Shown here: piece after piece, positions 15,815 to 36,254 of the stretch
Position numbering within the stretch: position 1 is the first letter of the stretch
Layout: each line of letters starts with the position of its first letter
Virus record (IMG/VR): IMGVR_UViG_3300006867_000026
Span: 1-39,670 of that record
Reading direction: 5' to 3' (one strand)
Source of the DNA: a virus
Taxonomy: Duplodnaviria > Caudoviricetes
DNA length: 39,670 nt
Notes under the pieces: model-generated
Database searches by the model: none
Told to the model about the DNA's origin: nothing
The model's input: the letters and a program-made list of their open reading frames with translations, nothing else
Position numbers and translations under genes: made by a program

Positions 15815-15842
15815 AGGGGCGGGAAACCGCCCCTTTCTTTTT
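15815..15842 (+). terminator. Rho-independent terminator
   Basis: AGGGGCGG-GAAA-CCGCCCCT followed by a T-tract. Confidence 0.85.
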
Positions 15843-15844
15843 GG

Positions 15845-15852
15845 TATATTTG
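15845..15852 (+). promoter_or_regulatory. Bacteroidota -7 promoter box for the tail operon
   Basis: TATATTTG right after the terminator, upstream of the ATG at 15874. Confidence 0.65.
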
Positions 15853-15873
15853 TAGGTATCTAAAAGTAATAAA

Positions 15874-20400: not shown

Positions 20401-21529
20401 AGGTATTGTAGGTGTAAACAGAAATATACTAGAGACCCTTACAGACCAGAACGTTGTGGTTTCTAATGTAGTATTTAGTACTCCAAATTATTATGCTGGA
20501 GACTTTGGCTCTAGCGGTTATCCTGCTGCTGTGGTAGAGCGGTTTGGTATGATGTATTTCGTGGATGTAAAAGCGCAGCGAGTGCTTCGCATCTCTCGTG
20601 ACGGCATCACGCCTATTAGCGACCCGAATATGGATTCGTTCTTTGATAAGAAGTTTTCTTCATATTTAACTGAAAGCGGTAAGACAGAGCTTGATATAGT
20701 TGCTGGTTATGATCCAGACAACTCAGAGTATGTGTTAACTAGTAAAGACCGTGGAAGCTACACTGGATTCACCATTGGGTACAGTCACAACAAGAGAGTG
20801 TTCACTTCTTTCTATTCTTTTAAACCAGACTTTTACACCCACATAAATGACAGATTCTTTTCTTTCAAAGTCGTTAGCGTTAGCGGTACGCAACAGTACA
20901 TGTGGGAACATGGTGCTGGCTCAACATACGGCAATTTCTATGGCACAGACTACGACGCAAAGATTTCAATCATTGCAAACGCCAATCCGTCCATGGTTAA
21001 AGCTTTCCAAGCATTATCACTAGAGGGTGATTCCGTGTGGTCTGCTGTGGTGTCTACCTCTAATCAAACCACCAGTATTGCTACTGGGGATTTTGATGAA
21101 AGAGAGCGAGGTTACTACGCTGCTATACCTAGAGATACTAGCGCCTCTACTGCTAATTACATAACGATAGGTATTGTAGACGACGTTACCGGAACAGCGG
21201 TAACCTTTGACAACAAGATTAATAGAATGCCTATACCTTTAGGTGCGGCATTGTATAAGGTTGACGGTAGCTCACTGACTAATCTTAATGCTACGGTGTC
21301 TAGTATTGATAGCTCTAAAAAGCTAACCACCAGTACTGCGCTTACTTCTTCTGAAGAGGGTAAGACTATTGTGGCTAAGCTTTCGGCTAAAGACGAAGGA
21401 GATGTCCTTAGAGATTACTACGCTAAGATTGAACTTACTAACTCTGTACATAACAAGAAGTCTGAGCTGTACGCTGTAAACACAGTGTTTGTAGATAGCC
21501 CTATGCACTCGGCGCTTAGTCAGAGATAA
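17435..21529 (+). CDS. Tail stabilisation / nozzle (muzzle-like, P22 gp10-like) protein, 1364 aa
   Basis: Beta-propeller-like composition with LDAENV, VYFTDGVGEPKKMN, FQFAYQYIYKDGEVS, GNRLVYGDYTEGYD, FGIVYYDAKGR and FTSFYSFKPD. Follows the ring proteins, as in crAss-like tail modules. Confidence 0.7.
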   Translation: MIIKNVPQYLNKASDEKLLKPIEMLDAENVQVSSDDDGNAGIVKTIKGNAHVEQNSSDEVYFTPASLKVIGSVAIPKKQQVVYFAKAEANLTNIDHIYVYDVDLNKYKILYRGNQLGFNIDSFVESSVVFNGDDEAIVYFTDGVGEPKKMNVDRLLANRSDIWKDADGINYYTDTDRDEFFAVCKTPPLTPITFEYTTDTAVQSNNVTDKTFQFAYQYIYKDGEVSAVSTYSKIAINPNTFGTGVVEPEFERENNKIVLSYQNGGSEVESIRFLARLGGTTVFYKIGEVNNGTGANPTFDFTNDGMFPAVSTAEIDKVYDNVPLKANAQSISGNRLVYGDYTEGYDNVAINVESSITYKDVENTGTINATLQSISLGNGPAIIIDGTNMAASYGQGAIIRLKVTLSGSSGSFRISRDSPSYLFSEDYVVGSDNGNYGLGQYTGNPSTNNYVDIPYNTDKVLSATIIAGSVMTRDEILDEIETQFAATSNAVYDYTNNGVNYNATGVVTSVGSGTQSYSVGDPVEVGLDFPEIELAFTADSAYTVTNKRKIDIEFDVLKAKVHYNSGISKRLVQIDGHPLNDTRTTAASYLGVANFRYISTTNVTLAVDVKRSLEAGLSSFKTSAMHNFGIVYYDAKGRASFVQKIDGVFVGGYTDSNRSTSLGRVQINLKIKHNPPSWAKKYQIVYGGNETYSKFLQYGVAGAHYISDQDSIYLDLFPLEGKNNSYSKDKGANLDYTYQDGDMLRIISFHDSSQNRVYVDDQIYNVLGKELVTDASEVTPSRASTYVVIRDEDYSSKTYSNFNLTKVKAGSDDWGQRVMVEIVSPNTVNNDTVYYEIGEVYDITSGAHVGDITDGGYPVVQLTDGDIYFKPREVLVAPFDSSSSEYDEDDYSNYEYETFYVESSSVSDYFDSEVTSRGRPHAINEDAKQVRRRSSVTYSDPYIADSAVLSLSSFNPATANFSDFEIRHGKIDKLVDQTDRLYVFQEHKVGIVGVNRNILETLTDQNVVVSNVVFSTPNYYAGDFGSSGYPAAVVERFGMMYFVDVKAQRVLRISRDGITPISDPNMDSFFDKKFSSYLTESGKTELDIVAGYDPDNSEYVLTSKDRGSYTGFTIGYSHNKRVFTSFYSFKPDFYTHINDRFFSFKVVSVSGTQQYMWEHGAGSTYGNFYGTDYDAKISIIANANPSMVKAFQALSLEGDSVWSAVVSTSNQTTSIATGDFDERERGYYAAIPRDTSASTANYITIGIVDDVTGTAVTFDNKINRMPIPLGAALYKVDGSSLTNLNATVSSIDSSKKLTTSTALTSSEEGKTIVAKLSAKDEGDVLRDYYAKIELTNSVHNKKSELYAVNTVFVDSPMHSALSQR

Positions 21530-21558: not shown

Positions 21559-22365
21559 ATGATAGATCCAGTAACGGGAATGCTTATAGTCCAAGGGGTT
21601 ACAGCCGGAGCGCAATATCTCTCTGGACGTAAGGAGGCTAAAAAAGCAGAGGCAAGAGAAGAGGAGATTCGTTCTGCGGGTATTCCTAAAATGGAAACCC
21701 CACAAGAATACTTTGATCTCTACATGAAGGCCAAAGAAAACAAAGGGGCTCAGCTTGCTACAGCGCAGGCTCAGCAAGGTATGGCTGATACCGCTGCTGC
21801 TTTGCAGGCCGGTGGTTCGCGTGCGTTAATCGGTGGTCTATCAGCGGCTCAGCGTAGAACAGACACAACAATTGCAGGTATTGGAGCACAATCTCAGCAA
21901 CAAGAACTGTCTGCCCTTGAAGGTTTGGCTGGCGCTCAGATGCGCACCGGCATGATGAACACTCAGATGGCTGGCCAGGAATACTTTAATGATTTGCAGG
22001 GAGCTCAGATGGCTTATCAGTCTGGAAGACAGATGCAGGCTAGCGCTATTAATAACTTCGCGCAGGCAGGGACTGCGGCTATGGGTGCTTACAGTGATGC
22101 TGATTACATGAAGAAATACGGGGATAGTGGCGTACTTAAGTTCTTCGGGAAACAAGGGATGAAGACTCCGGGTGAGTTTAGTCACGATGAGAATCCTATC
22201 GATCTTGTACGCGATGGTCAGAAAATTGGAGAGGCTACCGGTGGAGAATATATATTTAATCCAGAGCAGTCTAAGAAAATGAAAGCACTTGCTGGTAAAG
22301 AGAAGTCTCCACTAGCAAAATACGTTGTAGGGTTACTTAATAAATTTGATAAGAAAGCAGGATGA
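21559..22365 (+). CDS. Putative internal virion / ejection protein
   Basis: MIDP start, Ala/Gly/Gln-rich helices typical of podophage ejection proteins, and a small C-terminal domain (FSHDENP...GEATGGEYIFNP). Confidence 0.6.
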   Translation: MIDPVTGMLIVQGVTAGAQYLSGRKEAKKAEAREEEIRSAGIPKMETPQEYFDLYMKAKENKGAQLATAQAQQGMADTAAALQAGGSRALIGGLSAAQRRTDTTIAGIGAQSQQQELSALEGLAGAQMRTGMMNTQMAGQEYFNDLQGAQMAYQSGRQMQASAINNFAQAGTAAMGAYSDADYMKKYGDSGVLKFFGKQGMKTPGEFSHDENPIDLVRDGQKIGEATGGEYIFNPEQSKKMKALAGKEKSPLAKYVVGLLNKFDKKAG

Positions 22366-23741
22366 GTTTAATTTCAAAACCACTAGACTACAGTTCTGGA
22401 GCTACTCAAGCTGCTATCCAAGGCATTAGAGGTCAGCTTCAGATGGCGGCAATGGGCGCTGAAGAAGATCGTAGAGAGCGTAAGCGCGCTGAAGCGCAAG
22501 CAGCCTCCTTTGAGAAAAGCATGTCTGCTGCTGAAGGGTCGGTAAATTTCTTACCACCAAAAGCTCAGCAAGTATTCTCCGCCTACCATGACGGTTACAA
22601 GCAAGCCTTGGATGCTTATGAAGAAAACCCATCTCAAGAAAACCTAAACAGTATCAACAGAATTGTTGGTGCTGCAAACACATACTTGAGTCAATACGAG
22701 GGATTGCATAACGCAGACAAAAGCACTTTGCTAACCGGCATGTCCCAGCCAAACAAGTTTGGTATATCAACAGAGACAATGATGGGTGAGTTCGCTATGC
22801 GGCATGGTAACGATTCTGCATATAGCGAGGTTCGTTATGACCCTACTGTTGGTGATGTAGTTGTTAGCGGTGGCGGCATGGTTGGTCTTCGTGCTTCACA
22901 AGACCCTATGTTCAATCCGGACAATGCAATGATATTCCCTTCTAAGGCATCCATACCTAGAATAACCTCTGCTGAAGATTACGGTGGTAGATATGAGTCT
23001 TTATATTACAATCGACCAAGAGGGGAATTTGATAAAACCCTTCGCAATAGAATTGCTACGCAAGAAGAACTTCAGTTCTCAGCGGCAGCGTCATTAGCTG
23101 CTATGGATTACGGTAGCGATCCTCAAGACTTGAGTATAGGTATTGAGAACATCATGTCTGACCCAGAAGAAATGAAGCGAGCTACAGATTTATATGTAGA
23201 TAATGCGTGGAGGCAAGCAAACATTGCTCATCAAAGAAGAAGAGAGCAAGAAAGCACTGGTCTAGACTACAATGGATCGGATGCAGTGACCTTTACTACA
23301 GAGGACTACGACTATACCGCAGGTCAGATGACCACAACAAAAATGTCAGCAGATATTCCTACCTTTGATAAACCAATAAAGGTGTTGATTGAGGCTGATC
23401 CGGGTAACGAAAATACCCCTACTTATCAAAGAGTTGTGCTAGGCGCAGCACAGCTCCCAGATGACGAGGGGATCGTTATAAAAGAAAATGTCGGAACTAC
23501 ATATTATCAAGATCCTAACTCTGGAGAGGTAAGTAATACCCCTCAGCCAGGCTGGGCAGAGATGACTCGTTATGAGAATAGAAGTAGAGTAATCAAACCT
23601 ATTGGTATAGATGGGCGTAAAGAATACGCCGCCTATATGAATGCACTTGAAAAACAAAATGCGTTAAACCAAGAGGCTTCTTTACGGGTGATTAGCACAG
23701 AGCAAAGTGCGCTACCCGGACCACCGATGCCTCCACAATAA
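22362..23741 (+). CDS. Putative internal virion / ejection protein (459 aa)
   Basis: Lies between the ejection-like gene and the giant protein. N-terminal coiled coil. Confidence 0.55.
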   Translation: MSLISKPLDYSSGATQAAIQGIRGQLQMAAMGAEEDRRERKRAEAQAASFEKSMSAAEGSVNFLPPKAQQVFSAYHDGYKQALDAYEENPSQENLNSINRIVGAANTYLSQYEGLHNADKSTLLTGMSQPNKFGISTETMMGEFAMRHGNDSAYSEVRYDPTVGDVVVSGGGMVGLRASQDPMFNPDNAMIFPSKASIPRITSAEDYGGRYESLYYNRPRGEFDKTLRNRIATQEELQFSAAASLAAMDYGSDPQDLSIGIENIMSDPEEMKRATDLYVDNAWRQANIAHQRRREQESTGLDYNGSDAVTFTTEDYDYTAGQMTTTKMSADIPTFDKPIKVLIEADPGNENTPTYQRVVLGAAQLPDDEGIVIKENVGTTYYQDPNSGEVSNTPQPGWAEMTRYENRSRVIKPIGIDGRKEYAAYMNALEKQNALNQEASLRVISTEQSALPGPPMPPQ

Positions 23742-23749
23742 CATACTAG

Positions 23750-26700
23750 ATGAACGACGAGTTACTGCAATTATTGCAGAGTGGGTTTGATAGTGGATAC
23801 AGCGAGGACCGCGTATTTGCTATGGCTATTAAGAATGGGTTTTCCTACAACGAAGTGACGTTGGCCCTAGAGTCTATTAGTAAAAAAAAAGACCAAACTC
23901 AACCTCCTCCCCAGGTTACAGACACTATGGTTTCTGGCTTGGAAGACTCTGGGTTGGATTTATCATACGAGACAAAGGCTGACGGAACGCAGTTTCCAGA
24001 CGACTTATTAACTCAGCGATTTACTCAAAGCTCTGCTCCAAATAATAAACCGCAGGAAACTAACGATAGAGAATACCGTCATGCACTAATCGCTGATGAT
24101 TGGTTCGCTGATAGAGATGATTGGTTCGGTCGTACCGCTAGATGGTACAATAACTTTATGGCTATGGCTCTTGCGACCGGGGCTCAAGAAGATCTCCTAG
24201 ACGAAAGCCCAGAGAACAATGTTGATGCTGCAGAGCGACTGGCTTATTACAACGAAATACAAAACAAATACAGAGACGAGCGAGGGTATCCCGGATGGGG
24301 AGATCTTGGTTCTGCTAGCGGATGGTGGAAGATGGTTTTACCGGAAGTAGCAGGTAACGTTTTTTCATCTATTGCTGGTGGTTTTGCAAGCGGTAGTGCG
24401 CAAGAAACTGTATTAAAAACTATTGCAGAGGGTCAAGCTATAGGAACTAGCGCTGGTCTTGCTGGTGGTCCTCTTGCTGAGTTTACGGTTCCAATAGGTT
24501 ACGTAGCTGGTACAGCATACGGTGCTGCTACCGGTACTTCTTTTGCTGGTTCATACGCCCTTGAAATGTCAGAGGCTATCGCCAAGGCTCTTGAAGACCT
24601 GCATATAGATACAGAAGACCCGGAAGAAATTGCACAGACCTTTGAGTCTGAGGAGGGTTTGAAAAAGATTAGAGAAGCAATGGAGCGCCGTAAGGTACGC
24701 GCTGCTACTATTGCATCTGTAGATGCTCTTCTCGCTGGAGGTGGTGGTAAAACCGCGCAGGCTATTAGAAAAGCTGGAGGTAGTAAAACAAAAGCAGTGG
24801 TCGCTGAGATATTAGTGGATGCCGCTGGAGGTGGTGCTGGTGAAACTGCAGGTCAGATCGTTGAAGAGGGTAAAGTTACCTCGGGTCTTGATATTGTTAT
24901 GGAGGCTCTTGGCGGCCCAGTAATGGCCACGCCTGCTGCTGTAACCCGTGGCGCTAGCGCTAGGTATACAGAGCTGATGACTCCTACTGCAGAGAGAAAC
25001 TATATCCAATGGGCTCAGCAGAACAAAGAAAACGGCAGTAGTATTACTACCGCGGCTTCACTTATGGGTGACGGCCAGGTTCAGATAGTAGAGAAAAAGA
25101 TACAAGAAACAAAAGAGCAGCTTAAGAATGCTAAGGGCAAAGAGGCAAAGCAAACTTTGCGTGATGACCTTAAGCAACTTAGAGAGAAGAAATACGAGAT
25201 GCTCAATGCAAACATTAGAGCATTCGAGGAACTCAATCAAGACCAACAAGTAGAGTTACTCGAGAAGAGTCAAAAGATATTTGCACTCCAGCAGGAGATG
25301 CAGGAGACAACAGACACAAAGCTTAAGTCAAGATTGGGTGCAGAGATCCTCACTATGATGACGGGCTTTAATACGTTTGAAGTAGAGGCTGTAGCCCCAG
25401 CGGTAGAAACTACTACCATGGATCAAATGCAGGCTCCGGTTATGCCAACAACAGATGCTAAGCCTATCGTCGAAGGGCGCTCTGAGGTTGACGCCTTAAC
25501 TATCAACACACTAGAAGATGGAACTGAGGTTATTGCTCAGCGTCCTATCGATGGAACAGAGGTGCAAGGCGCTCTCCGCTTGGAGGGTAACCCAGAAAAC
25601 CCTACACTGGTAGTTGAGACTGAAACAGAAAAAGTAGAACTCGGGCAGCGTAGTGAGGTAGACCCGTCTACAATCAGAATGTTTGAGCCGGCTATTGCTG
25701 AGCGTGAGACACTAGCGGTGCAGGAAGATGGATCGTTTGTTTATCAACGTGATGACAACCCTAACGTACCGCAAGGAACAAAGCTTACTATTGATGAAGA
25801 GGCTGGCGTTAGCGCTATCTCTGTATTTGGCGAAGGCCAATTCAATCCACTACAAACACCAGAGGCAATTGCTGGTGACGCAGACAGAGGTGTCCGTGTA
25901 CAAATGAAAAACGAAAGCGGTGAGGTTGTTGAGCTCTACGGCCAAGACGCATTGGATGCTGCATATCAAATACTGCTGGCAGCCAAAGAGAACCCTGCAG
26001 ATAGAGCAAAAGTTAACCAAGTAATTGAGAACAATGAAGCAGCAAGACAAGCCCTTGAACAAGCCGAACGTGAGTTCGCAGAAGAAGGATCTGTACCAGA
26101 GACTGATGGACCTACCACAGAGCAAGCGCAACCAAGTGTTGGCCCAGCTCCTCGCCCAGCCGAAAGAGTAGCCCCGGGTGCTGCTGAAGAGGCAGCGTCA
26201 GAAACGGAGAAGACTAGAGAGGCCGTTAACGAACTAGACGATTCCGTTGAGGTTCGTGGTGGCGCAGTAAATCCAAGACGCCACGGTGTAACCCCACGTA
26301 TTGCAAGCATGCTTAACAGCGCGTATAATGCATTCGTTGGTTTATATACAGAAGCTCCTCGTGTTATTATCCATAAAACAAAAGAGTCGTTGCAGCGTGC
26401 TACCGGAGGCCCGTACGAAGCTTTCTATGAACATGAAAGAGAGGGTGGCCCAGCTATACACGTTATGTATAATGCGACTACCGCTGCTATACGTGAAGAG
26501 TTTGCGCACGCAGGACTTCGTCACGTCATGGTACTCCAGCCTGCTGTTCGTACAAAATTGTTTAACGACCTGCAAGGCATTAACAATGAAACACTTCGCA
26601 ATAAAATCAATGAGCGCTTCCGTAAGTACGTAGCGTTCTATATGGAGCGTGGTGCTTCTGAGGCAAAGGCTGTTGCCATCGCTGAAGAGGAGGCTATTGT

Positions 26701-29700
26701 CGGTATCATTGCAGACATCAACGACAACCTTAATCAGATTGACGCTAGTGCTAAGGCTAAGACTAGACGTGTTATCAACAAGATGCTCGGCACTAAGCTT
26801 GGCAAGTTCCACCTAAAGAGCAACAACGATTTAGTCAATATGATCGAGCGTGTTACGCAGGGATACAGAACTGGTAATAAGATATACATATTAGACATTG
26901 TTAGAAACGCACAGCCAAATCCAAATCCGAACCCGGCAGAGGCAATGCGTACTGAGTCTGACCCTACATCAGATGACCGTGCTCGATTGATTGACTTTGC
27001 GTTTGACCGTGACCTCGATTTGTCCGACATGAAGAAGTTGGGTAGCGGTGCTTTTGGTTATGCCTTCATGGTTAAAGATAAGGATGGGCGAGACGTTGTC
27101 CTTAAGCAGGCACAGAGCGTTGACGAGATGTACATTGCTTCAAACTACTTTGATAGATTTGGTGGTAAGCTACCGGGCCTTGCTCAGTACTACGATGTAG
27201 CAATTGCTTCCGATGTAGATGGAGTGCCGTTTATATACCAACTCAAAGAGTATTTACCGACATCAATGACAGACGTTGTTGGTAGAGATGGCGTCACTTC
27301 TCAGCTTAACATTGGCGCTGTAATCGGAGACCTTGAGAACATTGCTGAATCATTAAACAGAAACTTCCCTTACTCCGGTGCTTTAGGTCCTAGTAGAGGG
27401 ATTAGTAAAATCCAGCATCAAGCCATGATCGAAAACATGACCGTGGCGAAACAACTTTACCAAGCTCTTAAGGCTGCTAGACTTGAGTCAATCAATGATT
27501 CAGAGAGAACTGCTGGTTCTGGTTTTGTAGAGTTGAGACTGTCTAATCTAAAGGCAGTGTTTAGTCCTATACTAAATTCAAGAGAGCTTAACATAGAAAT
27601 GAACACATACAAATACTTGTATGAACATTTGTTTGGTTTAGACTACTACGCTGACGACCGTTTGGTTTTAAAGCCGGATGTCACTAGAGCTGAGTTATCT
27701 GCCTCACTTTTGCGTAAGCATGTAGTAAAGAGTTTAGTTACTGATATCGCTGACGGTTTGTTTAATTGGGCGTCTGTTGGTACTGCTACTTTAGAGTCGC
27801 TTCAAACAAAGGCTAGGCTCTTGGGTGAGGCCAGTCCTAGCAGCTTAGAGCGTTACGAGATAAGACAAGAATCTTTAGAAGATCTAGAGCAAAACCACCC
27901 CGGTTCGCTAGAGAAGATATCTAAATTGTACGACAACAATGAAATGATATTCACTCTAATAGACAACGCTATCCGTGCTGCTTTTGACGTCGAAGGCTTT
28001 ACCGCTGAAGAAGTGATAGATGTTTCGATGGCTTATCTCGATAACCAGGTGGCAATGAGTAAGAGTCTTGGGCAGTTGGGCTTGAGATCAGCAGACCTTC
28101 ACCCTGGCAACGTAGGGTTCGCAGCTATCAACTCCGAGAATAAGATTGAAAGATTCTCTTCTGTCAAGTTCTTTGATATCATGGGCCCGATATATGAGGG
28201 CGTAGAGCGAGGAGGGAATTTCCCGGTTACAGAGATTGATGCGTTTATAGCCAGGGATTTCAAGGAGTTTGTTAATGAAGGTAACAGAAGACTTAAAGAT
28301 GCTGCCGCTGATATGGATTACTACACCAGTTTCGGTGAGGAAGACTTTGCGGCACGCACATATTACAATCACATAGGTGTTGGTGTTATACCTCCTATCA
28401 CCATCAAGGCTATACTAGATGCAGAACCGGAAATGTCTATAGGCGAAAGCAACCTGGGGTATGATGGTACTGCACATCCTAAATCTAGAGAAGCTCTTAA
28501 GCACATAGCAAAGACCATTGGTCTTGTTAAACTGATGCATAAGAATCCAGACTACAAGTTAATGAGGGTTCTGCAAAACGAGTTGTTTAAAGTAGATGGT
28601 GCTCTGGGTGTTACCAAAGTAGACACTCAACAGCGTGACGACATATACTTCTTTAACGAGCAGGTACAGACAGCTTTCCATGATGTGCTCCAAGAGTATC
28701 AGCGTGAGGCTATGCTTGATCCTAGTGAGCGTTCAACTGTAGACAGTGGCAACCGTGCTCGTATTGAAGAGTACCTTCTTGCCGAGAGTATTGAATTTAA
28801 GGCGATCGAAGAGATTGGCTCTGGTGCTTTTGGCAAAGCATTTATTGTTAACACCCCAGACGGAAACGTCGTTGTTAAAAGAACCGCAAGCAAGAGAGAG
28901 ACCTACATTAGTTCAAGATATATCAAGCGCCATAACGGTAAGCTTCCTGGGCTTGTTAAGTATCACGCGATGAGGGCGATGTTCCTGGACGCCGCAAACG
29001 ATTGGATGGGCAGCGGTGTGATATTTGTCACAAAAGATTTATCAAACACAACTGTTGACAAGTACGGTTCTAGTTATGATATTTCGGTAGGCGATGTCTT
29101 CGGACAGATTACACTGGCTGTTAATAGTGTATACGATAAGTCAACAGAGCTGCTAGGTAATGTAGATCCTGGACCAGGTGTGCGTAACGGTATAGATTTA
29201 CATACCGCGCAAAATACCGCGCTGGCTTTAATGCAGGTCTATCAAGACCCATACAAGGTTGCAGAGATTAATAAGTATATTGAAGATGAGCTTCCGGGAA
29301 TCATGCTTCGTGGAGACAATTCCCCTAACACTGTAACTCAAGAAGTTATTGACGGGTCTATGACCCTTGAAGATATCATTGGTTATGCTGTTAACTTCTG
29401 GCAGATGGCAGGGTCGTTTACTTTATTAGGCGCCGCCAATCCAGATATACACAGCGCTAATCTAGGTTTCTCAAAAGAAGAGAAAACATTAAATGGATAC
29501 CCCTTACTTGAAGCATTTGATGTTGACGGGTTTGAGAACAACATGATGCTCAACAGCCGCCAGGCACAAGAGGACCATCAAACTTTCATGAATGAGATAA
29601 CAGACGAGACAAAAGCTGCATTCATTCCTGGGTATCAAGACAAGCAATACTTCTTCTTTGGGCAACCGTTTTCTCAGTTGAATCCAGTGGGGCTTGTTGG

Positions 29701-32700
29701 TGAGGAGGCTGCTAAGTTTAGAGAAGAGAACAAAGATGAGATAGTAATGGAGACCGCTATCCCAGCTCAAGTTCCAATCACCACCATGCAGGACGTCATG
29801 TACGATCAAGAAGAGGCTGAGTACACAGCAGGAGACATCATTGAAGAACTTCGATTGCCTCGAGACGACGAATCTCCTTACAGTAATAAGGACCCGTATT
29901 CAGATATACTTAGACAGTACGATTACGGATACACAATCCCATACCTTGACGGTACAGAATTGTTTAGAGATTTCCGTAGACAAGAAGACGGAAGCACGGC
30001 AGACTTTAGAGCTGGAGAGATAGCGGAACTGCTTACCAAGAACATAGATCAGTATGCTCTTAGTGATATGATTGAAAGGATGAATGAGCCTATGTTCCAA
30101 GCAACCTATTCAAGTCGATTCAAGGATATCTTTGAGACCAGAGAAAAACAAAGAGCAAGCTTGGTTTCTGCCTTGAAGTCTAAGCTCGACTACATGGAGA
30201 ATGGAAACCGCGCTCGACTAGATGACGAGACCGTTGAGTTAGCGGTATCTAAAATCAGCGGCGGCAAGCGCGTGTCTCCTGCTCGTGCTACATCTGCTGG
30301 TTCAGATGTCAAGCTTAACTATGACGGGTCGAGACAAATCTCTATGGACTACACCAGAGAGAACGCTCCAGCTGTATATGTTCGTGGCGCTTTCGTATTG
30401 GGTACACACACAATGATGTCTGACATCAAGGGTACTAAAGCTTTAGATACTAAGAACCCTACAGAGGCTCAACTGAAAAAGGCTGACGAGATCTACGAGA
30501 TATTCGTTGAGCGCGCAACCAAGAACCTTATTAGACTTCACGATTCTTTCAGTGAAGATGTGAGAAAATATTCTAAGCTCTGGTATGTTGGTGCTAACCT
30601 TACCGCTCAAGACATGGGCGCAAGATATGGGTACTCTCAAGAGCAAGCCGCCGGTATCCTAGCGGCTCTGTCTCCGCAGAAAGATTGGTATCAGAACATG
30701 GCGCTAGCTGAAGCGGTGATGCGCGTGATGCGCAATCAGAAAGATACAGAGTTTTCTAAGGCTATGTATAACAAAGCCCTTGGTAATACACGTAAGGTAA
30801 ACAACAAGGTGCTTAGCCAGCAAGACTTTAAGAAAGCGGTAAACGAAAAAGCATACCAAGCTTACCTCAAGAGAAAGGCTGTGTTGCAGAGCATGATAGG
30901 CAAGACTTTAGGCGAGATGAGTCTCGAGGAAAACGGAGCTATGAACGCTGCTATGTTTGTCCGTACATACAACGAGATGTTTGAGGATCGCAACTACCAC
31001 GTGGTAAGTCCTATTGGTGAGCGTATTGGTTATGCTAAGAAAGCAGATGGGTCTATGTCCACTATGGCATGGGGTTCTTATGCTGAGATTTCTTCAGCAA
31101 CATCTATTGTGTTGAACGGTACTATGTCAAACATCGACAAGCAGGTTGGTGACCAACACAAGGTGCGTTCATTCTTCAACAATATCAATAACCCTAACTC
31201 TTTGGAGGGTGATGTTACGATTGACACTCACGCTGTTGCGGCTGCAGAGCTACTACCTTTAGCAGGGTCTAGCTCAGAGGTGTTCCACAACTTCGGCGGT
31301 GGTACTGCTGCTATGAAAGTCAAAGCTGGTAGTTCAAACCTCGGCATCAAGGGTGTGTACTTTGCGTATGCAGAGGCATACCGTAGAGCAGCAGACGAGA
31401 AAGGTATACTTGCAAGAGAGATGCAGTCTATCACATGGGAAGCTGTACGTACTTTGTTTACCGCAGGCTTCAAGGCTCAGAAGAAAAACAAGCAAGAGGT
31501 TCGTGCCATCTGGCAAGAGTATAGCAAGGGTAACATTAGCTTTGAAGAAGCTCAAGACCAGGTGTTTGAAAGAGCCGGCGGTGTGTTCAACCCGGACTGG
31601 TATGTAGACAGCGGCGATCGCGCAAGGCTAGATGAAACTAGAGAGAGACGTCACGCTCGCAAGATGTTCCAGAACCTACGACCAGATGTTCCTTTCGAGG
31701 CAGCCGTTCGTGAAGAACTTAAGAGAGACCCTTCTAGATTCTATGAACCTCAAAAGTTTAGCGAGATCAAAGAGCGTCTAGAAGAGATGAGTATTGAGGA
31801 GCTCCTTGCTGAGATGAAAGACGTTGCTATGTTTGACGGAGATAACCCCTCTGTTATCAATGACGCAATGGGTTCTTTAGCCGGAGGAGACTTCCGTGTT
31901 CTAGCAACACTTGAGTACCTCAAGAGACTGCAGCAGCAGGGGCGTACTTCTGAGTACCGTGCTGTTCTGAAAAGGTTCTTTGAAACTGGTACAGCTGTCG
32001 GTCAATTGTTACGACAGTTCGGTGAAATAAAAGGCCAGACTCCAGAGGGAATGAAAGACCTGGTTGACAGTGTGTACGAAGCAAACGGCACTACTCTCTC
32101 TGATACAGAGTACGAAGAGATGGGTGCTATTGTTGATGATTTGTTTGATGGTCAGCAAGATGTTCAAGCATTGATCAAAGAGCTTTCGGAAACCACAGAC
32201 ATGGACCGTGTTGGAGAGATTGAGGGAAGATTAGAGGACGCTAAACGCAGAGTGTCTGAGGCTAACAAACGATTGAATGAATTCAATAGCAAGTATGCTA
32301 TGACATGGGGTAAACTAATTGGTTTACTTATCCAAGGTAACCTTCTTACTCCGGTGTCGCAGATGGTCAACGTTACCGCCAACCTTTCTACGCTACCTAT
32401 CCTAATGCTAGACAAGACTCTTGGGTATGGCGCTGAGGTTTTGATTAACGGTATCCGCAAGAGCATGGGGAAAGATGTTGACCCTAGTATAGCATCATTA
32501 CCACCTTCTATAACTGCAGCAATCTACGCTGGTAAACAGTTTGGTGTTGGTATTAAAGACGCATACAAGAGTGCTATTGGAGAGACTGTACCTAACGATA
32601 AGTTTGAGTACAACATGCAGCTTCAGCTGGCGCCCATCAAAGCATTCGGTTTGATAATGGCGAACAGCGACAAGCTTCCGGACGCTGTGAAGAACGGTAC

Positions 32701-34378
32701 TAAATTAGATCAGATTGATTACCGTGCTAAGAAATTCCTAGAGGCAGTTGGTGGTACACCAGCAAACCTTATGTTCAGACTGCTGGCGTTTGGTGATGTG
32801 CCGTTCTTTAAATTCATGGAGGGATACGAACTATACAGAGTCGGTAAGTCTTTAGGGCTTAGTGGTGATGAGTTAAATAGATTCTTGAAGTATCCAAATG
32901 AAGAGTACAGAAACAAGGCAACACAAGCAGGTCTAAAGGTTACGTTCCAAGAGGATAACCAGTTTGCTACATGGTTGAATAAGGCTATAACAAGAACCGC
33001 TGATTTAATCGGGGAGCGCAGTCGTGTATTAGAGAATGCTTTCCGTGTTGTGGTGCGTATGCACATGCCGTACGTTAAGACTCCGGCTAACATCCTCGCT
33101 CAAAGTATTCAGCTAGCACACCCTGCTATACCTATTGCTACCATTGCTATCAAGAAAGCAGCAAGAGGGAGAGTATCTCAGCGCGAGCTTGCCGAGTTGT
33201 TGTCGAAAGCATTCATGAGCTGGCTGATGTATAAAGCCACACAGCGATTGATGGAAAGCGGATTGATTACTACTCCGGTAGATGCTGACGTTGCAAGAGA
33301 AAGAGATTTGAAATACTCGGTCGCTCCACCCAACTCGATCAACATCACCGGTATCAATAGACTATTGAAAGGTGAAGACCCTACACTTCAAGCGAATGAT
33401 GTATGGTTTAACTATCAGAAGCTTGGTCTTGGTGGTGCGGTAATGGCAGCCCAGGCAGTAGGCTTGAAGTCCACAATGCGTGATGCGCAGATGGAGTCTA
33501 GAGTACTTAACCGCTCGGACAACTTCATGGATTACCTTGCAGATTTAACGGGTGTTGTTCCTGGGGTGTTAGGTTCTATGATGAACCAGTCTTTCCTTAC
33601 TGGTATTGACGGTATCATTAAGCTTCTTGCTGACCCAAGCGAGCGCCAGCTCACTAAGTACCTTGAGAACATTTCGCGTTCTGGTTTCTCTGTGATTCTC
33701 CCGAACTCACTCAGCGCATTCTACCGCTCTGGTCGTGAGTATCTTCCGGACTACAGACATCCTAACGCAGACTTCTTCAACGTGCTTGACAACATCTTGC
33801 GTGATAAGACATTCAACTACCTGGGTACTGGCGAGCAGGTCATACCTCGTGTGAATATTTGGGGTGAGTCAATCACGCAAACTCCAGAGGGTGGTGGCTC
33901 ATTGATGATCGGTGATGGAGATGAGTACCCTTGGTTGTACAATACCTTCGGTGTATTCAAATCTAGAATCAGTTCTACTGACCCGGTAAAGGTTGAGATA
34001 TACAACTTGTTCAAAGAGACCGGTGACACTGATGTGATCCCTGGATATCCTATGCCGGTGGGTAAGTTAAAGATTCAACTCACCAAGAGTGAATCAGCTT
34101 ACTATGGATTGAATGTAAACGAACCGCACTACATTGACGTGATGCCTAAAGATGCGCATGCTATGATGAAGATGTTCGGTACATACAGATACAATGAGAT
34201 TAAGAAGTTTGTTTCAAGCGACTCTTACGAGCGAATGACAAACGCACAAAAGATTAGTGCTTTGAAATCTATTTACAATAGAAATTCTAGAGGCACATAC
34301 GATGGCGGTATCTATCCATGGAAAGCATACCGTGATGGAATGGTTAGAAATTATTTTTTAGATTTAGGAGATGAGTAA
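23750..34378 (+). CDS. Giant multidomain (polyvalent) virion protein, 3542 aa: Gly-rich membrane segment, zincin-like domain, two kinase-fold domains, HhH-glycosylase-like domain, C-terminal helical domain
   Basis: Uninterrupted ORF and last of three ejection-type genes. Motifs: EEFAH...EEEA; GSGAFG...VVLK...DLHPGN...FFD; GSGAFG...VVVK...DIHSAN...AFD; WY...AALSPQKDW...KVRSFFNNI...VTIDTHA...QSITW; PYVKTPANI. Confidence 0.8.
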   Translation: MNDELLQLLQSGFDSGYSEDRVFAMAIKNGFSYNEVTLALESISKKKDQTQPPPQVTDTMVSGLEDSGLDLSYETKADGTQFPDDLLTQRFTQSSAPNNKPQETNDREYRHALIADDWFADRDDWFGRTARWYNNFMAMALATGAQEDLLDESPENNVDAAERLAYYNEIQNKYRDERGYPGWGDLGSASGWWKMVLPEVAGNVFSSIAGGFASGSAQETVLKTIAEGQAIGTSAGLAGGPLAEFTVPIGYVAGTAYGAATGTSFAGSYALEMSEAIAKALEDLHIDTEDPEEIAQTFESEEGLKKIREAMERRKVRAATIASVDALLAGGGGKTAQAIRKAGGSKTKAVVAEILVDAAGGGAGETAGQIVEEGKVTSGLDIVMEALGGPVMATPAAVTRGASARYTELMTPTAERNYIQWAQQNKENGSSITTAASLMGDGQVQIVEKKIQETKEQLKNAKGKEAKQTLRDDLKQLREKKYEMLNANIRAFEELNQDQQVELLEKSQKIFALQQEMQETTDTKLKSRLGAEILTMMTGFNTFEVEAVAPAVETTTMDQMQAPVMPTTDAKPIVEGRSEVDALTINTLEDGTEVIAQRPIDGTEVQGALRLEGNPENPTLVVETETEKVELGQRSEVDPSTIRMFEPAIAERETLAVQEDGSFVYQRDDNPNVPQGTKLTIDEEAGVSAISVFGEGQFNPLQTPEAIAGDADRGVRVQMKNESGEVVELYGQDALDAAYQILLAAKENPADRAKVNQVIENNEAARQALEQAEREFAEEGSVPETDGPTTEQAQPSVGPAPRPAERVAPGAAEEAASETEKTREAVNELDDSVEVRGGAVNPRRHGVTPRIASMLNSAYNAFVGLYTEAPRVIIHKTKESLQRATGGPYEAFYEHEREGGPAIHVMYNATTAAIREEFAHAGLRHVMVLQPAVRTKLFNDLQGINNETLRNKINERFRKYVAFYMERGASEAKAVAIAEEEAIVGIIADINDNLNQIDASAKAKTRRVINKMLGTKLGKFHLKSNNDLVNMIERVTQGYRTGNKIYILDIVRNAQPNPNPNPAEAMRTESDPTSDDRARLIDFAFDRDLDLSDMKKLGSGAFGYAFMVKDKDGRDVVLKQAQSVDEMYIASNYFDRFGGKLPGLAQYYDVAIASDVDGVPFIYQLKEYLPTSMTDVVGRDGVTSQLNIGAVIGDLENIAESLNRNFPYSGALGPSRGISKIQHQAMIENMTVAKQLYQALKAARLESINDSERTAGSGFVELRLSNLKAVFSPILNSRELNIEMNTYKYLYEHLFGLDYYADDRLVLKPDVTRAELSASLLRKHVVKSLVTDIADGLFNWASVGTATLESLQTKARLLGEASPSSLERYEIRQESLEDLEQNHPGSLEKISKLYDNNEMIFTLIDNAIRAAFDVEGFTAEEVIDVSMAYLDNQVAMSKSLGQLGLRSADLHPGNVGFAAINSENKIERFSSVKFFDIMGPIYEGVERGGNFPVTEIDAFIARDFKEFVNEGNRRLKDAAADMDYYTSFGEEDFAARTYYNHIGVGVIPPITIKAILDAEPEMSIGESNLGYDGTAHPKSREALKHIAKTIGLVKLMHKNPDYKLMRVLQNELFKVDGALGVTKVDTQQRDDIYFFNEQVQTAFHDVLQEYQREAMLDPSERSTVDSGNRARIEEYLLAESIEFKAIEEIGSGAFGKAFIVNTPDGNVVVKRTASKRETYISSRYIKRHNGKLPGLVKYHAMRAMFLDAANDWMGSGVIFVTKDLSNTTVDKYGSSYDISVGDVFGQITLAVNSVYDKSTELLGNVDPGPGVRNGIDLHTAQNTALALMQVYQDPYKVAEINKYIEDELPGIMLRGDNSPNTVTQEVIDGSMTLEDIIGYAVNFWQMAGSFTLLGAANPDIHSANLGFSKEEKTLNGYPLLEAFDVDGFENNMMLNSRQAQEDHQTFMNEITDETKAAFIPGYQDKQYFFFGQPFSQLNPVGLVGEEAAKFREENKDEIVMETAIPAQVPITTMQDVMYDQEEAEYTAGDIIEELRLPRDDESPYSNKDPYSDILRQYDYGYTIPYLDGTELFRDFRRQEDGSTADFRAGEIAELLTKNIDQYALSDMIERMNEPMFQATYSSRFKDIFETREKQRASLVSALKSKLDYMENGNRARLDDETVELAVSKISGGKRVSPARATSAGSDVKLNYDGSRQISMDYTRENAPAVYVRGAFVLGTHTMMSDIKGTKALDTKNPTEAQLKKADEIYEIFVERATKNLIRLHDSFSEDVRKYSKLWYVGANLTAQDMGARYGYSQEQAAGILAALSPQKDWYQNMALAEAVMRVMRNQKDTEFSKAMYNKALGNTRKVNNKVLSQQDFKKAVNEKAYQAYLKRKAVLQSMIGKTLGEMSLEENGAMNAAMFVRTYNEMFEDRNYHVVSPIGERIGYAKKADGSMSTMAWGSYAEISSATSIVLNGTMSNIDKQVGDQHKVRSFFNNINNPNSLEGDVTIDTHAVAAAELLPLAGSSSEVFHNFGGGTAAMKVKAGSSNLGIKGVYFAYAEAYRRAADEKGILAREMQSITWEAVRTLFTAGFKAQKKNKQEVRAIWQEYSKGNISFEEAQDQVFERAGGVFNPDWYVDSGDRARLDETRERRHARKMFQNLRPDVPFEAAVREELKRDPSRFYEPQKFSEIKERLEEMSIEELLAEMKDVAMFDGDNPSVINDAMGSLAGGDFRVLATLEYLKRLQQQGRTSEYRAVLKRFFETGTAVGQLLRQFGEIKGQTPEGMKDLVDSVYEANGTTLSDTEYEEMGAIVDDLFDGQQDVQALIKELSETTDMDRVGEIEGRLEDAKRRVSEANKRLNEFNSKYAMTWGKLIGLLIQGNLLTPVSQMVNVTANLSTLPILMLDKTLGYGAEVLINGIRKSMGKDVDPSIASLPPSITAAIYAGKQFGVGIKDAYKSAIGETVPNDKFEYNMQLQLAPIKAFGLIMANSDKLPDAVKNGTKLDQIDYRAKKFLEAVGGTPANLMFRLLAFGDVPFFKFMEGYELYRVGKSLGLSGDELNRFLKYPNEEYRNKATQAGLKVTFQEDNQFATWLNKAITRTADLIGERSRVLENAFRVVVRMHMPYVKTPANILAQSIQLAHPAIPIATIAIKKAARGRVSQRELAELLSKAFMSWLMYKATQRLMESGLITTPVDADVARERDLKYSVAPPNSINITGINRLLKGEDPTLQANDVWFNYQKLGLGGAVMAAQAVGLKSTMRDAQMESRVLNRSDNFMDYLADLTGVVPGVLGSMMNQSFLTGIDGIIKLLADPSERQLTKYLENISRSGFSVILPNSLSAFYRSGREYLPDYRHPNADFFNVLDNILRDKTFNYLGTGEQVIPRVNIWGESITQTPEGGGSLMIGDGDEYPWLYNTFGVFKSRISSTDPVKVEIYNLFKETGDTDVIPGYPMPVGKLKIQLTKSESAYYGLNVNEPHYIDVMPKDAHAMMKMFGTYRYNEIKKFVSSDSYERMTNAQKISALKSIYNRNSRGTYDGGIYPWKAYRDGMVRNYFLDLGDE
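27020..28190 (+). other. Protein-kinase-like domain 1 within the giant protein
   Basis: G-loop GSGAFG at 27041-27058, beta3 Lys at 27104, helix-C Glu in SVDEMY, catalytic loop DLHPGN at 28094-28111, Mg-binding Asp (FFD) at 28175. Confidence 0.75.
28790..29535 (+). other. Protein-kinase-like domain 2 within the giant protein
   Basis: GSGAFG at 28817-28834, VVVK, SKRETY, DIHSAN at 29444-29461, then EAFDVDG. Confidence 0.75.
30560..31600 (+). other. HhH-GPD glycosylase-like domain (DUF7178-like, from memory) within the giant protein
   Basis: LWY, AALSPQKDW at 30662-30688, KVRSFFNNI, VTIDTHA at 31214-31234 (compare EndoIII VDTH) and MQSITW. Confidence 0.55.
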
Positions 34379-34736
34379 TATTATTAAAAAGATTCTAGGG
34401 GGTGGTGCAAAAGAAACTGTAGATGCGGTAGGTAATATCGTGGATAAGTTTGTTGCTACTCCAGAAGAAAAGGCCGCAGCGAAAGCTCAGATTGAACAAG
34501 AGATTAGTAAGCGTTGGCAGTCAGACATGGCATCTACATCTTGGCTGTCTAAGAATGTACGCCCACTTACACTCATGGTGGTTGTGGTTTTCCTAGTATT
34601 GATGACGTTCTTTGATGGCTTCGGATTGGTAGATGTTAACGGGGCGTGGATCAATCTATGGAACATGCTTAGCGTTACCGTTGTTGGCGGTTACTTTGCA
34701 GTAAGAACAATTGATAAAAGAGGAAACACAAAATGA
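34371..34736 (+). CDS. Holin (3TM / GTA-holin-like family)
   Basis: DKFVATPEEK, WQSDM..SWLSKNVRP, two strong TMs and GGYFAVRTIDK. Adjacent to a peptidase-like lysin. Confidence 0.75.
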   Translation: MSNIIKKILGGGAKETVDAVGNIVDKFVATPEEKAAAKAQIEQEISKRWQSDMASTSWLSKNVRPLTLMVVVVFLVLMTFFDGFGLVDVNGAWINLWNMLSVTVVGGYFAVRTIDKRGNTK

Positions 34737-35206
34737 AACTACAAGTATTAAGATTCTCTTCGCAAGAAGACAGTACACTAGGGTTGTTGTTCGATGTAAC
34801 AGACGGCAACAGAGAGTTCTTAGCATTCACATTAGAAGATGAGCACAGAGAAGAAAAAGTATATGGAGAAACACGAGTCCCTGCAGGAGAGTATAAAGTC
34901 ACGCTTAGAACCACCGGTGGATTTCACTCCCGCTATACTAGAAAGTATGGTGGGTTTCATCGTGGCATGCTTTGGGTACGCGACGTCCCAAACTTTGAGT
35001 ACATACTTATTCATACTGGGAATACTGATGACCATACTGCTGGTTGCCTATTAGTAGGCGATCACTCGCAGCAGAATATAACTAAGGAGGGATTCATTGG
35101 TTCATCGGTTGACGCTTACCGGAGAATATATCCGGACCTAGCCGATGCTGCAGAGGATGGTGACTTGACTATCGAGTACGTAGACTTCGATATCCCTAAT
35201 ATCTAA
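34733..35206 (+). CDS. DUF5675-family L,D-peptidase-like protein (putative endolysin)
   Basis: STLGLL, FTLED, TRVPAGEY and the His/Cys motif ILIHTGNTDDHTAGCLLVG. ATGA overlap with the holin. Confidence 0.75.
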   Translation: MKLQVLRFSSQEDSTLGLLFDVTDGNREFLAFTLEDEHREEKVYGETRVPAGEYKVTLRTTGGFHSRYTRKYGGFHRGMLWVRDVPNFEYILIHTGNTDDHTAGCLLVGDHSQQNITKEGFIGSSVDAYRRIYPDLADAAEDGDLTIEYVDFDIPNI

Positions 35207-35810: not shown

Positions 35811-36254
35811 TCACACGTTATTAACAATATGTTCTACCACCTGGTCAACCTCCTTCTGGTTTCTGGGTATGTAAACATCATAGTCCCCCATGTCGTTGTT
35901 CTTTAGCCACATGAGAAACATTTTGAAACGCAATGGGAAGCTGTGCTGTGATGGCACAAATCCTTTTGTCTCGATCACGAACTTATGTTTGTGACTCACA
36001 AAGTCTGGGGTGTAAGTGACAGCCCGTATCAACTTGTTTTGTTTCAAGCTGAATCCACGAGCTGCCTTCTTACCATAGAACCCTTCGTGTCTAAAGGATT
36101 CTAGTACCTCGAACCTATGACCTTCATAGTCAAAAGATAAATCACTAGACTTTAGTTTTTTGTAGCAGTACAACTCAAGGCTTGACTGGAACTCTATACC
36201 ATCATGCTTTGATTTCTTATGTCTTACCGCTCCGGTCTTCTTCTTTCTTCTCAT
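35811..36254 (-). CDS. PD-(D/E)xK endonuclease (T7 endonuclease I / DUF1064-like resolvase)
   Basis: FQSSLE, YTPDF and IETKG motifs. Confidence 0.8.
   Translation of the reverse strand: MRRKKKTGAVRHKKSKHDGIEFQSSLELYCYKKLKSSDLSFDYEGHRFEVLESFRHEGFYGKKAARGFSLKQNKLIRAVTYTPDFVSHKHKFVIETKGFVPSQHSFPLRFKMFLMWLKNNDMGDYDVYIPRNQKEVDQVVEHIVNNV

What the first reader, a model, noticed from the sequence alone, without database searches (positions are those of the whole stretch)
27020..29535. Tandem pair of diverged protein-kinase-fold domains carried inside a virion protein
Seen: both domains keep the full catalytic set (GSGAFG loop, beta3 Lys, helix-C Glu, DxHxxN loop, downstream Asp). They also share private sequence (EMYIASNYFDRFGGKLPGLAQY vs ETYISSRYIKRHNGKLPGLVKY; LNIGAVIGDL vs ISVGDVFGQI), indicating an old duplication. 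The distance from G-loop to catalytic loop differs greatly (~350 aa vs ~210 aa), implying large variable helical insertions. Known: DxHxxN is typical of atypical kinases (APH, ABC1/UbiB), and phage T7 uses an early-expressed kinase (gp0.7) against host proteins. Inference: two pre-made kinases with different substrate-binding inserts are injected to phosphorylate host defence or expression machinery before phage genes are expressed.
Basis: partly seen in the sequence, partly recalled or inferred. Interest (0 to 1): 0.85.

Follow-up and report, generated by a model that had tools for sequence, protein, structure and literature searches.

The report
Twin kinases in phage cargo protein
A giant gene at the end of an uncultured phage's virion gene block carries two duplicated kinase-fold modules whose catalytic residues never vary among relatives; the protein is likely packed in the particle and injected, where the kinases would phosphorylate host proteins before any phage gene is expressed.

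Summary
Observation confirmed. The 3542-aa ORF (23750-34378) holds two kinase modules, K1 and K2. Eleven motif residues are invariant in 11 of 11 distinct K1 and 14 of 14 distinct K2 copies, while the inserts are only ~50% identical. K2 folds confidently as a protein-kinase-like domain; the K1 model was too poor to judge. K1 and K2 are sister clades. They match no Pfam, PHROG, NCBIfam or PADLOC kinase model, including Kinase-PolyVal, but link to unnamed ~200-aa minimal kinases and, through them, to T7 gp0.7 and eukaryotic-type kinases; G-loop and insert position argue against the APH type. The ~350-aa spacing is optional: orthologues have 180. The protein is a polyvalent cargo protein: relatives carry other modules instead. 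Virion location rests on gene order alone; activity, substrate and host are untested. Iyer 2017 already predicted C-lobe-less kinases in Bacteroidetes phage polyvalent proteins, so this is a new variant of a known kind. The scan had no earlier look-alike sequence, only the same cargo theme on other genomes.

The parts
23750..34378 (+). Giant 3542-aa ORF, last gene of the virion block; polyvalent cargo-type protein
   Evidence: same gene slot as phi38:1 gp101; family with variable middle modules
26300..26959 (+). Zincin-like module with EEFAH (nt 26495-26509) and downstream EE; HExxH in several relatives, EExxH here
   Evidence: motif reading only, no library hit
26975..28195 (+). Kinase module K1 (aa 1076-1482): G-loop 27041, Lys 27104, Glu 27125, LPGL Pro 27173, DLHPGN 28094, metal Asp 28175
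27275..27994 (+). K1 helical insert between hinge and helix E; about 170 aa of it absent in orthologues L021/L022/P0041
28196..28750 (+). K1 tail (about 185 aa), unassigned; may stand in for the lower C-lobe
   Evidence: 63% mean identity; role inferred
28751..29539 (+). Kinase module K2 (aa 1668-1930): G-loop 28817, Lys 28877, Glu 28898, Pro 28946, DIHSAN 29444, metal Asp 29519
29045..29344 (+). K2 helical insert between hinge and helix E; most variable part of the protein
   Evidence: 50% mean identity
29540..30205 (+). K2 tail (about 220 aa), unassigned
30206..31615 (+). DUF7178 (PF23802) module
   Evidence: (E 1.2e-22)
31616..34375 (+). Conserved C-terminal domain shared by the cargo family, with or without kinases
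26975..26989 (+). [DN]RAR[LI] junction motif, copy 1 of 4 (others at 28751, 30206, 31616); each heads a module
   Evidence: 0.016 expected, 4 seen; kept in P0041, variant forms in P0006
13564..14928 (+). Context: major capsid-type protein, 34% identical to phi38:1 gp093
17435..21529 (+). Context: crassvirus-muzzle-like tail protein, orthologue of phi38:1 gp097
21559..23741 (+). Context: two ORFs (268 and 459 aa) between muzzle and giant gene, in the slot of small cargo proteins
   Evidence: position only
34371..35206 (+). Context: holin-like gene and DUF5675 gene directly downstream

Best explanation
K1 and K2 are duplicated kinase-fold modules with an invariant catalytic core, set in the swappable middle of a giant polyvalent phage protein that is likely packed in the head and ejected into a probably Bacteroidota host, where the two modules would use host ATP to phosphorylate host proteins, most likely defence or takeover targets, before phage genes are expressed. 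Shown: sequence motifs, their invariance, the K2 fold (as a prediction), the duplication, the modular architecture, module turnover among relatives. Inferred: packaging and ejection (gene order, as for phi38:1 and crAss001 cargo genes); refolding in the cytoplasm; possible release of modules at the four RAR junctions; Ser/Thr/Tyr protein substrates (by kinship to T7 gp0.7 and eukaryotic-type kinases); the inserts and tails as the parts that set target or localisation, changing faster because they face the host.
For: Eleven motif positions invariant in 11/11 K1 and 14/14 K2 distinct full modules against ~50% identity in the inserts and 83-89% in the non-kinase parts. dN/dS 0.05-0.19 in N-lobes and most catalytic segments, 0.21-0.35 in inserts. 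K2 model pLDDT 84.5, pTM 0.86; Foldseek PDB 311 matches at E<=0.001, the 48 rows shown all kinase-fold. K1 recognised independently: ESM Atlas 0.95-0.97 to 207-226 aa unnamed and Pkinase/RIO1/ABC1 clusters. Family profile A2: best PDB scores are eukaryotic-type protein kinases (RSK2 37 bits), then the minimal effector kinase SteC 26 bits, APH-type amicoumacin kinase 22 bits; T7 gp0.7 23 bits and 95.9% by hhalign; 5 of 32 A2 rows hit the T7-kinase-annotated phrog_15752. G50, G52, G55 all kept and insert lies before helix E, whereas APH lacks G50/G55 and inserts between VIa and VIb. Six upstream genes are orthologous to phi38:1 gp092-097 in the same order and the giant gene ends the block as gp101 does. 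Of 14 relatives sharing the C-terminal domain, 6 carry kinases and 8 do not; among these P0044 has LPD23 and P0047 a sub-cutoff ART-PolyVal match. P0006 has a methyltransferase-like motif set where K1 sits, then one kinase. Against L011 the C-terminal 920 codons are identical while the kinase cassette differs at about 110 sites, as expected for a recombining conflict module.
Against: No activity, substrate, virion proteomics or host data exist here. The giant protein has no significant sequence similarity to phi38:1 gp099-101 and its C-terminal domain matches no cultured phage, so virion location is positional only. Structure comparison does not separate protein from small-molecule kinases: APH(4) Z 9.4, APH(9) 9.0, PKR 8.9 are tied. 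The direct K1/K2 profile vs gp0.7 is not significant (6%); the link runs through the small kinases. The K1 model has pLDDT 51 and does not show an assembled active site. No region has dN/dS above 1 except a 65-codon stretch with 4-5 replacements and no silent change, too few to count. No Ser/Thr/Tyr depletion in kinase-bearing versus kinase-free cargo proteins. A kinase made late would need to be held inactive in the producing cell, and no such control was found.
Confidence: 0.55

Rival explanations
1. The kinases act on the phage's own proteins (auto- or trans-phosphorylation of the cargo, portal or tail) to time packaging, unfolding or ejection, not on the host.
For: They are fused to a structural-slot protein; T7K autophosphorylates.
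Against: 8 of 14 relatives with the same C-terminal domain have no kinase, so the cargo works without it; the fastest-changing parts are the kinase inserts while the rest of the protein is conserved, the reverse of what a self-substrate would predict.
Confidence: 0.13
2. They are small-molecule, lipid or nucleotide kinases of the PKL fold that inactivate a defence metabolite or signal at entry.
For: APH-type structures tie for first in VIA-align and Foldseek; DxHxxN is shared with such enzymes; tandem relatives are fused to nucleotidyltransferase-like and InPase domains.
Against: Intact GxGxFG loop and no insert between helix E and the catalytic loop; profile scores favour protein kinases; 19 of 21 parsed stand-alone relatives end within 40 aa of the metal Asp, leaving no APH-type substrate helices.
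Confidence: 0.14
3. The kinases are protein kinases that work late in the producing cell (host shut-down, superinfection exclusion, lysis timing) and are merely fused to, or clipped off, the cargo protein before packaging.
For: The gene is late by position, next to lysis genes; RAR junctions and a zincin-like module allow cleavage, and P1 DdrB is processed before packaging according to Iyer 2017.
Against: Fusion inside the cargo protein gives no advantage for a late cytoplasmic role, which stand-alone relatives could fill; other modules in this slot are typical entry effectors.
Confidence: 0.1
4. One or both modules are ATP-binding or scaffold pseudokinases; K1 in particular is disrupted by its long insert.
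For: H158/H164/D220 network and DFG Phe are missing; K1 model not assembled.
Against: All catalytic positions invariant in both modules; T7 gp0.7 also lacks HRD-His and DFG and is active; short K1 orthologues align end to end with K2.
Confidence: 0.08

Closest known systems
Phage polyvalent proteins with Kinase-PolyVal (PF18762); Iyer et al. 2017, PMC5512222 (passages read)
   Same: Giant multi-domain protein among virion genes, zincin-like module, interchangeable effector modules; kinase predicted to lack the usual C-terminal subdomain; Bacteroidetes-type phage; T7 kinase cited as precedent.
   Different: No PF18762 match; canonical GxGAFG loop without the described Glu; Gln in the last N-lobe strand in K1 only; 50-220 aa helical insert before helix E; two tandem paralogues; RAR junctions.
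T7 gp0.7 (T7K) and JSS1_004; PMC13645617 (abstract and sections 9-11 read), PMC12345140 (abstract read)
   Same: DxHxxN catalytic loop without HRD His/Arg, PG[IL] motif after helix C, non-DFG metal-Asp motif; phage-borne; family profile aligns at 95.9%.
   Different: T7K is a small early-expressed protein with a DPV motif and a DNA-binding shut-off domain; K1/K2 have D-[IV]-[MD]-G, inserts, no shut-off domain, and sit in a late giant protein. Not among close kin in the tree (long branch).
Unnamed 170-300 aa minimal kinases from metagenomes (P0007-P0040; BFVD uncharacterised marine-phage proteins)
   Same: Closest sequence and structure relatives; same motif set, end shortly after the metal Asp; also occur as 2 or more tandem copies (P0010, P0013, P0008, P0016, P0023, P0028, P0034).
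   Different: Stand-alone or in other giant proteins; G-loop to Asp spacing 107-195 versus 180-354; no function known.
crAss001 cargo proteins and phi38:1 gp099-gp101; PMC10172136 (passages read)
   Same: Genes after a muzzle-like tail gene; large proteins that in crAss001 are in the virion by mass spectrometry and are proposed to be ejected partly unfolded.
   Different: No sequence similarity to gp101; crAss001 large cargo is RNA polymerase, not kinases.
Minimal bacterial effector kinases SteC/OspG; PMC13395416 (passages read)
   Same: [quoted passage not shown]
   Different: Secreted by bacteria into animal cells; keeps two C-lobe helices needed for substrate binding; no specific kinship shown.
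APH/CAK small-molecule kinases; Kannan et al. 2007, PMC1821047 (passages read)
   Same: PKL fold, DxHxxN-type loop, tied top structural scores.
   Different: APH lacks G50/G55 and inserts between VIa and VIb; K1/K2 keep both glycines and insert before helix E.

Membership tests
Protein kinase-like (PKL) superfamily | Bilobal PKL fold | tested here: met
   K2 model pLDDT 84.5; 311 PDB matches at E<=0.001; VIA Z 9.4, rmsd 6.1, 164 aligned. K1 by sequence homology and Atlas only; its model was inconclusive.
Protein kinase-like (PKL) superfamily | Six catalytic residues G52, K72, E91, D166, N171, D184, and P104 | tested here: met
   Present in both modules and invariant in 11/11 and 14/14; residue list.
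Protein kinase-like (PKL) superfamily | H158-H164-D220 network | tested here: not met
   H158/H164 positions are G/S (K1) and T/N (K2); no D220 identified. Single members of the triad are lost in active families; T7K also lacks both His by inspection.
Protein kinase-like (PKL) superfamily | ATP-dependent phosphotransfer | not testable with these tools
   Needs assay.
Kinase-PolyVal (PF18762) | Match to the family HMM | tested here: not met
   0 of 11 A1 rows at E<=1, 0 of 32 A2 rows at E<=0.1, no candidate in own genome. No positive-control member was obtained.
Kinase-PolyVal (PF18762) | Loss of the C-terminal subdomain | tested here: inconclusive
   Stand-alone relatives end soon after the metal Asp; K2 model shows two short helices after it and both modules carry 185-220 aa unassigned tails.
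Kinase-PolyVal (PF18762) | Glu N-terminal to strand 2 of the ATP site | tested here: not met
   Loop reads G[SDER]GA[FY]G; a Glu occurs only at the variable second position in some K2 copies.
Kinase-PolyVal (PF18762) | Conserved Gln in last N-lobe strand; insert between conserved His and Asp | tested here: inconclusive
   Gln in K1 (YQLKE), Thr in K2 (VTKD); catalytic-to-metal Asp spacing 25-27 versus 17-19 in most small relatives. The paper's alignment file was not seen, so the wording cannot be mapped with certainty.
Phage polyvalent proteins | Disparate enzymatic modules in one giant chain, varying among relatives | tested here: met
   Kinase x2 + DUF7178 here; MTase-like motifs + kinase in P0006; LPD23 in P0044; ART-PolyVal (below cutoff) in P0047.
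Phage polyvalent proteins | Encoded among virion genes | tested here: met
Phage polyvalent proteins | Zincin-like MPTase with HExxH | tested here: inconclusive
   EExxH..EE in this lineage, P0006, P0042, P0043; HExxH in P0044, P0045, P0046, P0049.
Phage polyvalent proteins | Packaged and injected | not testable with these tools
   Uncultured; no virion proteomics.
T7K (gp0.7) family | DPV motif at the metal Asp | tested here: not met
   D-I-M-G, D-V-D-G, D-I-D-G.
T7K (gp0.7) family | C-terminal DNA-binding shut-off domain; early gene | tested here: not met
   Alignment to gp0.7 covers residues 69-208 only; gene lies in the virion block.
APH/CAK small-molecule kinases | Insert between subdomains VIa and VIb; G50 and G55 replaced | tested here: not met
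   Helix E runs directly into the catalytic loop in the K2 model and in the RSK alignment; G50/G55 kept.

The most novel reading that the evidence does not exclude
A previously unnamed family of minimal T7K-like kinases has been captured and duplicated in a phage ejection protein, so that the virion delivers a ready-made burst of broad protein phosphorylation at the DNA entry site, disarming defences before any transcription; the RAR junctions are processing sites that switch the kinases on only after ejection, and the hypervariable inserts replace T7K's shut-off domain as the aiming device.
Probability: 0.25. Interest if true: 0.85.

Novelty: new variant of a known kind. Interest (0 to 1): 0.52.

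Why it matters
T7 kinase was recently shown to be a general anti-defence weapon, but it must first be transcribed and translated. A kinase carried in the particle would act earlier, against defences that strike entering DNA. Such kinases were predicted in 2017; my literature searches listed no experimental case. K2 is a compact, well-predicted domain that can be assayed directly, and natural long and short K1 variants give a ready test of what the inserts do. The search also exposes an unnamed family of ~200-aa minimal kinases that current libraries mostly miss.

Tried and rejected
Library scans of K1/K2 found nothing: Pfam, PHROGs (6, 68 for the window row), NCBIfam, PADLOC. tblastn of K2, of the C-terminal domain and of small kinase P0012 against cultured phages: no match. 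A1 against GTDB genomes: none of 53 pattern hits confirmed. A2 against longer proteins: none of 7996 candidates at E<=1e-5, weak evidence. K1 fold with 10 sequences failed (pLDDT 51) and its structure search gave only generic helical matches, best Z 5.4. Kinase-PolyVal members for a profile comparison could not be obtained (0 of 401 genomes over cutoff). DUF7178: no solved relative (the A4 profile was diluted by full-length rows) and no paper naming it. Host: capsid relatives in three MAG contigs labelled Microbacteriaceae and Parvibaculum look like binned viral contigs and were not used as host evidence. No calcineurin-type phosphatase in 0 of 3 related genomes. No Ser/Thr/Tyr depletion. No hydrophobic segment above 1.5 in the three cargo-slot proteins. 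Papers on phi38:1 gave no mention of gp100/gp101 in the main text; supplements were not read and may hold virion proteomics. Three of the 36 profile hits (P0017, P0021, P0025) were judged spurious from their Pfam content and left out. In the tree the pattern cut missed P0010, P0022, P0023 and some tandem copies, mis-ended P0041_k1 and P0011, and paired parts of two modules in P0008_k1; the K1/K2 sister result does not depend on those rows but the outer tree is unreliable. RNA run X17 holds a close variant across both kinases, which does not show transcription. No complex prediction was run: no candidate partner.
Full report
Setting. The window is a 39.7-kb linear virus record, 66% complete by CheckV. 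The finding lies inside one 3542-aa ORF, 23750-34378 (+). Upstream genes at 12437-21529 are orthologous, in order, to Cellulophaga podovirus phi38:1 gp092-gp097 (E 3e-8 to 3e-65); the 1364-aa gene matches the crassvirus muzzle families. Two mid-sized ORFs and the giant ORF follow, then a holin-like gene. In phi38:1 the block ends with gp099-gp101, annotated 'structural protein', the last being the largest. In crAss001 the large cargo proteins were detected in virions and are proposed to be ejected partly unfolded (PMC10172136, passages). The giant ORF has no significant similarity to gp101, so its virion location is an inference from position. The capsid protein matches 85 phage records, 84 of them Flavobacterium, Cellulophaga or Maribacter phages, at 32-34% in the rows shown, which makes a Bacteroidota host likely but unproven.

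The observation. Every motif quoted is present in frame at the stated place. K1 spans aa 1076-1482 and K2 aa 1668-1930. They align over the N-lobe at 32% (E 1e-14) and again over the catalytic loop. Each of the two main motifs is expected 0.12 times by chance in this protein and occurs twice in the right order. Identical copies exist in other assemblies, so this is not an assembly artefact.

Conservation. Across all relatives fetched, eleven motif positions (G50, G52, G55, K72, E91, P104, D166, the His two after it, N171, D184 and the Gly three after it) are invariant in 11 of 11 distinct complete K1 modules and 14 of 14 K2 modules; four partial K1 rows were set aside. Among eight full-length proteins mean identity is 83-89% outside the kinase region, 74-81% in the kinase cores and 50-53% in the inserts. 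Pairwise dN/dS is mostly 0.05-0.19 in the cores and 0.21-0.35 in the inserts, so selection is purifying throughout and relaxed in the inserts; positive selection is not shown. Against L011 the last 920 codons are identical while the kinase cassette differs at about 60 silent and 50 replacement sites, the mark of local recombination. Orthologues L021, L022 and P0041 have a K1 with 180 aa from G-loop to catalytic Asp instead of 348-354. This natural deletion ties the two halves of K1 into one domain and shows that most of the long insert is optional.

Fold. K2 folded with a 32-row alignment gives pLDDT 84.5 and pTM 0.86: five-stranded N-lobe with helix C, then five helices, helix E, catalytic loop, beta7-beta8, and two short helices. 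Foldseek finds 311 PDB chains at E<=0.001; the rows shown are all kinase-fold, protein and small-molecule kinases mixed. VIA-align ties APH(4) (Z 9.4, rmsd 6.1, 164 aligned), APH(9) (9.0) and PKR (8.9). In BFVD the best matches are uncharacterised marine-phage proteins, with enterobacterial phage 'protein kinase' entries at ranks 5 and 7. The K1 model failed (pLDDT 51, confident only in the helical insert). K1 is nevertheless recognised by the ESM Atlas at 0.95-0.97 as like 207-226 aa unnamed and Pkinase/RIO1/ABC1-labelled proteins.

Family. No library model names K1 or K2. A profile of K1+K2 against 1.84 billion representatives gave 36 hits at E<=0.001: two cargo proteins, three judged spurious, and 31 small or tandem kinases. 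Twenty-two small ones were aligned: G-x-G-x-x-G, Lys, Glu, Asp and Asn are invariant. Nineteen of 21 parsed end within 40 residues of the metal Asp, so the family core is a kinase without the usual lower C-lobe. Several hits carry two or more tandem copies, so tandem arrangement recurs in the family. A profile of the small kinases alone matches K2 (E 3e-22) and the K1 N-lobe (E 1e-15) for a single comparison, with the caveat that they were selected by a K1/K2 profile. In the tree K1 and K2 form sister clades (97/89), supporting a duplication in this lineage; the single kinase of P0006 joins them only weakly (68/53).

Protein or small-molecule kinase. The combined profile scores eukaryotic-type protein kinases highest in the PDB (RSK2 37 bits), then SteC 26, T7 gp0.7 23 and an APH-type enzyme 22; hhalign to gp0.7 gives 95.9%, though K1/K2 alone do not reach it. 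gp0.7 shares DxHxxN (DMHSGN), a PGI motif and the lack of HRD. Kannan et al. 2007 (passages) state that APH-type kinases lack G50 and G55 and insert between VIa and VIb. K1 and K2 keep both glycines and insert before helix E. [quoted passage not shown] I therefore favour protein substrates, without excluding small molecules.

Architecture. A [DN]RAR[LI] motif stands at the head of K1, K2, the DUF7178 module and the C-terminal domain (4 seen, 0.016 expected). Upstream is a zincin-like module reading EEFAH rather than HExxH. Of 14 proteins sharing the C-terminal domain, 6 carry the kinase pair (one truncated) and 8 carry none; among the latter are LPD23, a sub-cutoff ART-PolyVal match, DUF3293 and L5 gp82. 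P0006 has methyltransferase-like motifs (read by eye, no library hit) in place of K1 and one kinase after a GRARM junction. This is the layout of polyvalent proteins. Iyer et al. 2017 (passages) describe in them a kinase family lacking the C-terminal subdomain, found mainly in Verrucomicrobia and Bacteroidetes (pro)phages, and propose a T7-like role. K1/K2 do not match that family's HMM and lack its Glu signature, so they work like it at best and are not filed as members; the paper's alignment file was not seen.

Mechanism. Most likely the protein is made late, packed in the head and ejected; the kinase modules refold in the cytoplasm, perhaps freed at the RAR junctions, and phosphorylate host proteins with host ATP before phage transcription. 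T7K disarms DNA-targeting defences this way and owes its promiscuity probably to a non-DFG motif (PMC13645617, abstract and sections 9-11); K1/K2 also lack the DFG Phe, but with a different motif, so promiscuity is a hypothesis. What holds the kinases quiet in the producing cell is unexplained. Confidence 0.55; rivals are small-molecule substrates (0.14), self-phosphorylation (0.13), late action in the producer (0.10) and pseudokinase (0.08).

Novelty. Searches for polyvalent/phage/kinase, virion or injected phage kinases, and truncated or tandem phage kinases (listings only unless cited above) showed no experimental virion-delivered protein kinase and no description of this family; the library lacks most subscription papers. 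The concept is in print as a prediction, the family and the tandem pair with variable inserts are not in the libraries tested. Verdict: real feature, new variant of a known kind, interest 0.52.

Noticed in passing
window 26975, 28751, 30206, 31616: A [DN]RAR[LI] motif marks all four module junctions and is kept in relatives; candidate processing or ejection signal.
   Followed up: partly
window 26495-26509: Zincin-like motif reads EExxH with downstream EE in this lineage and three distant relatives, HExxH in four others; altered or inactive peptidase.
   Followed up: partly
window 30206-31615: DUF7178 module, 88% conserved; its VTIDTH and AYRRAA...QSITW motifs recall (from memory, untested) the end of helix-hairpin-helix DNA glycosylases.
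   Followed up: partly
P0008, P0016, P0023, P0028, P0034: 1200-1900 aa proteins with several tandem minimal kinases plus a cytidylyltransferase-like domain and, in two, InPase; unnamed.
   Followed up: no
P0007-P0040: Family of 170-300 aa stand-alone kinases ending just after the metal Asp; only 1 of 22 aligned reaches the Pfam Pkinase cutoff. P0020 is a GNAT-kinase fusion.
   Followed up: partly
P0006 aa ~1120-1345: Methyltransferase-like motifs occupy the K1 slot in a distant cargo relative.
   Followed up: no
window 23750-24950 versus L011, L033: The N-terminal 400 codons form a second recombination or divergence tract (dS 0.42-0.44) while codons 401-1070 are nearly identical.
   Followed up: no
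L017 2461-4680 and 4418-12574: In one relative the giant gene is in two overlapping frames just at the zincin motif; frameshift or assembly error.
   Followed up: no
window 8698-9645: ORF whose N-terminal part matches phrog_7595 and weakly a minor head/pilot protein, with a lysozyme-like-looking C-terminal half (by eye).
   Followed up: no
window 9626-10665: Two paralogous-looking small membrane proteins followed by a coiled-coil holin-like gene, a second lysis-type cluster apart from the holin at 34371.
   Followed up: no
window 36251-38089 (-): Primase-helicase with BT4734-like N-terminal domain and DnaB-like C-terminus, on the opposite strand where GC skew flips.
   Followed up: no
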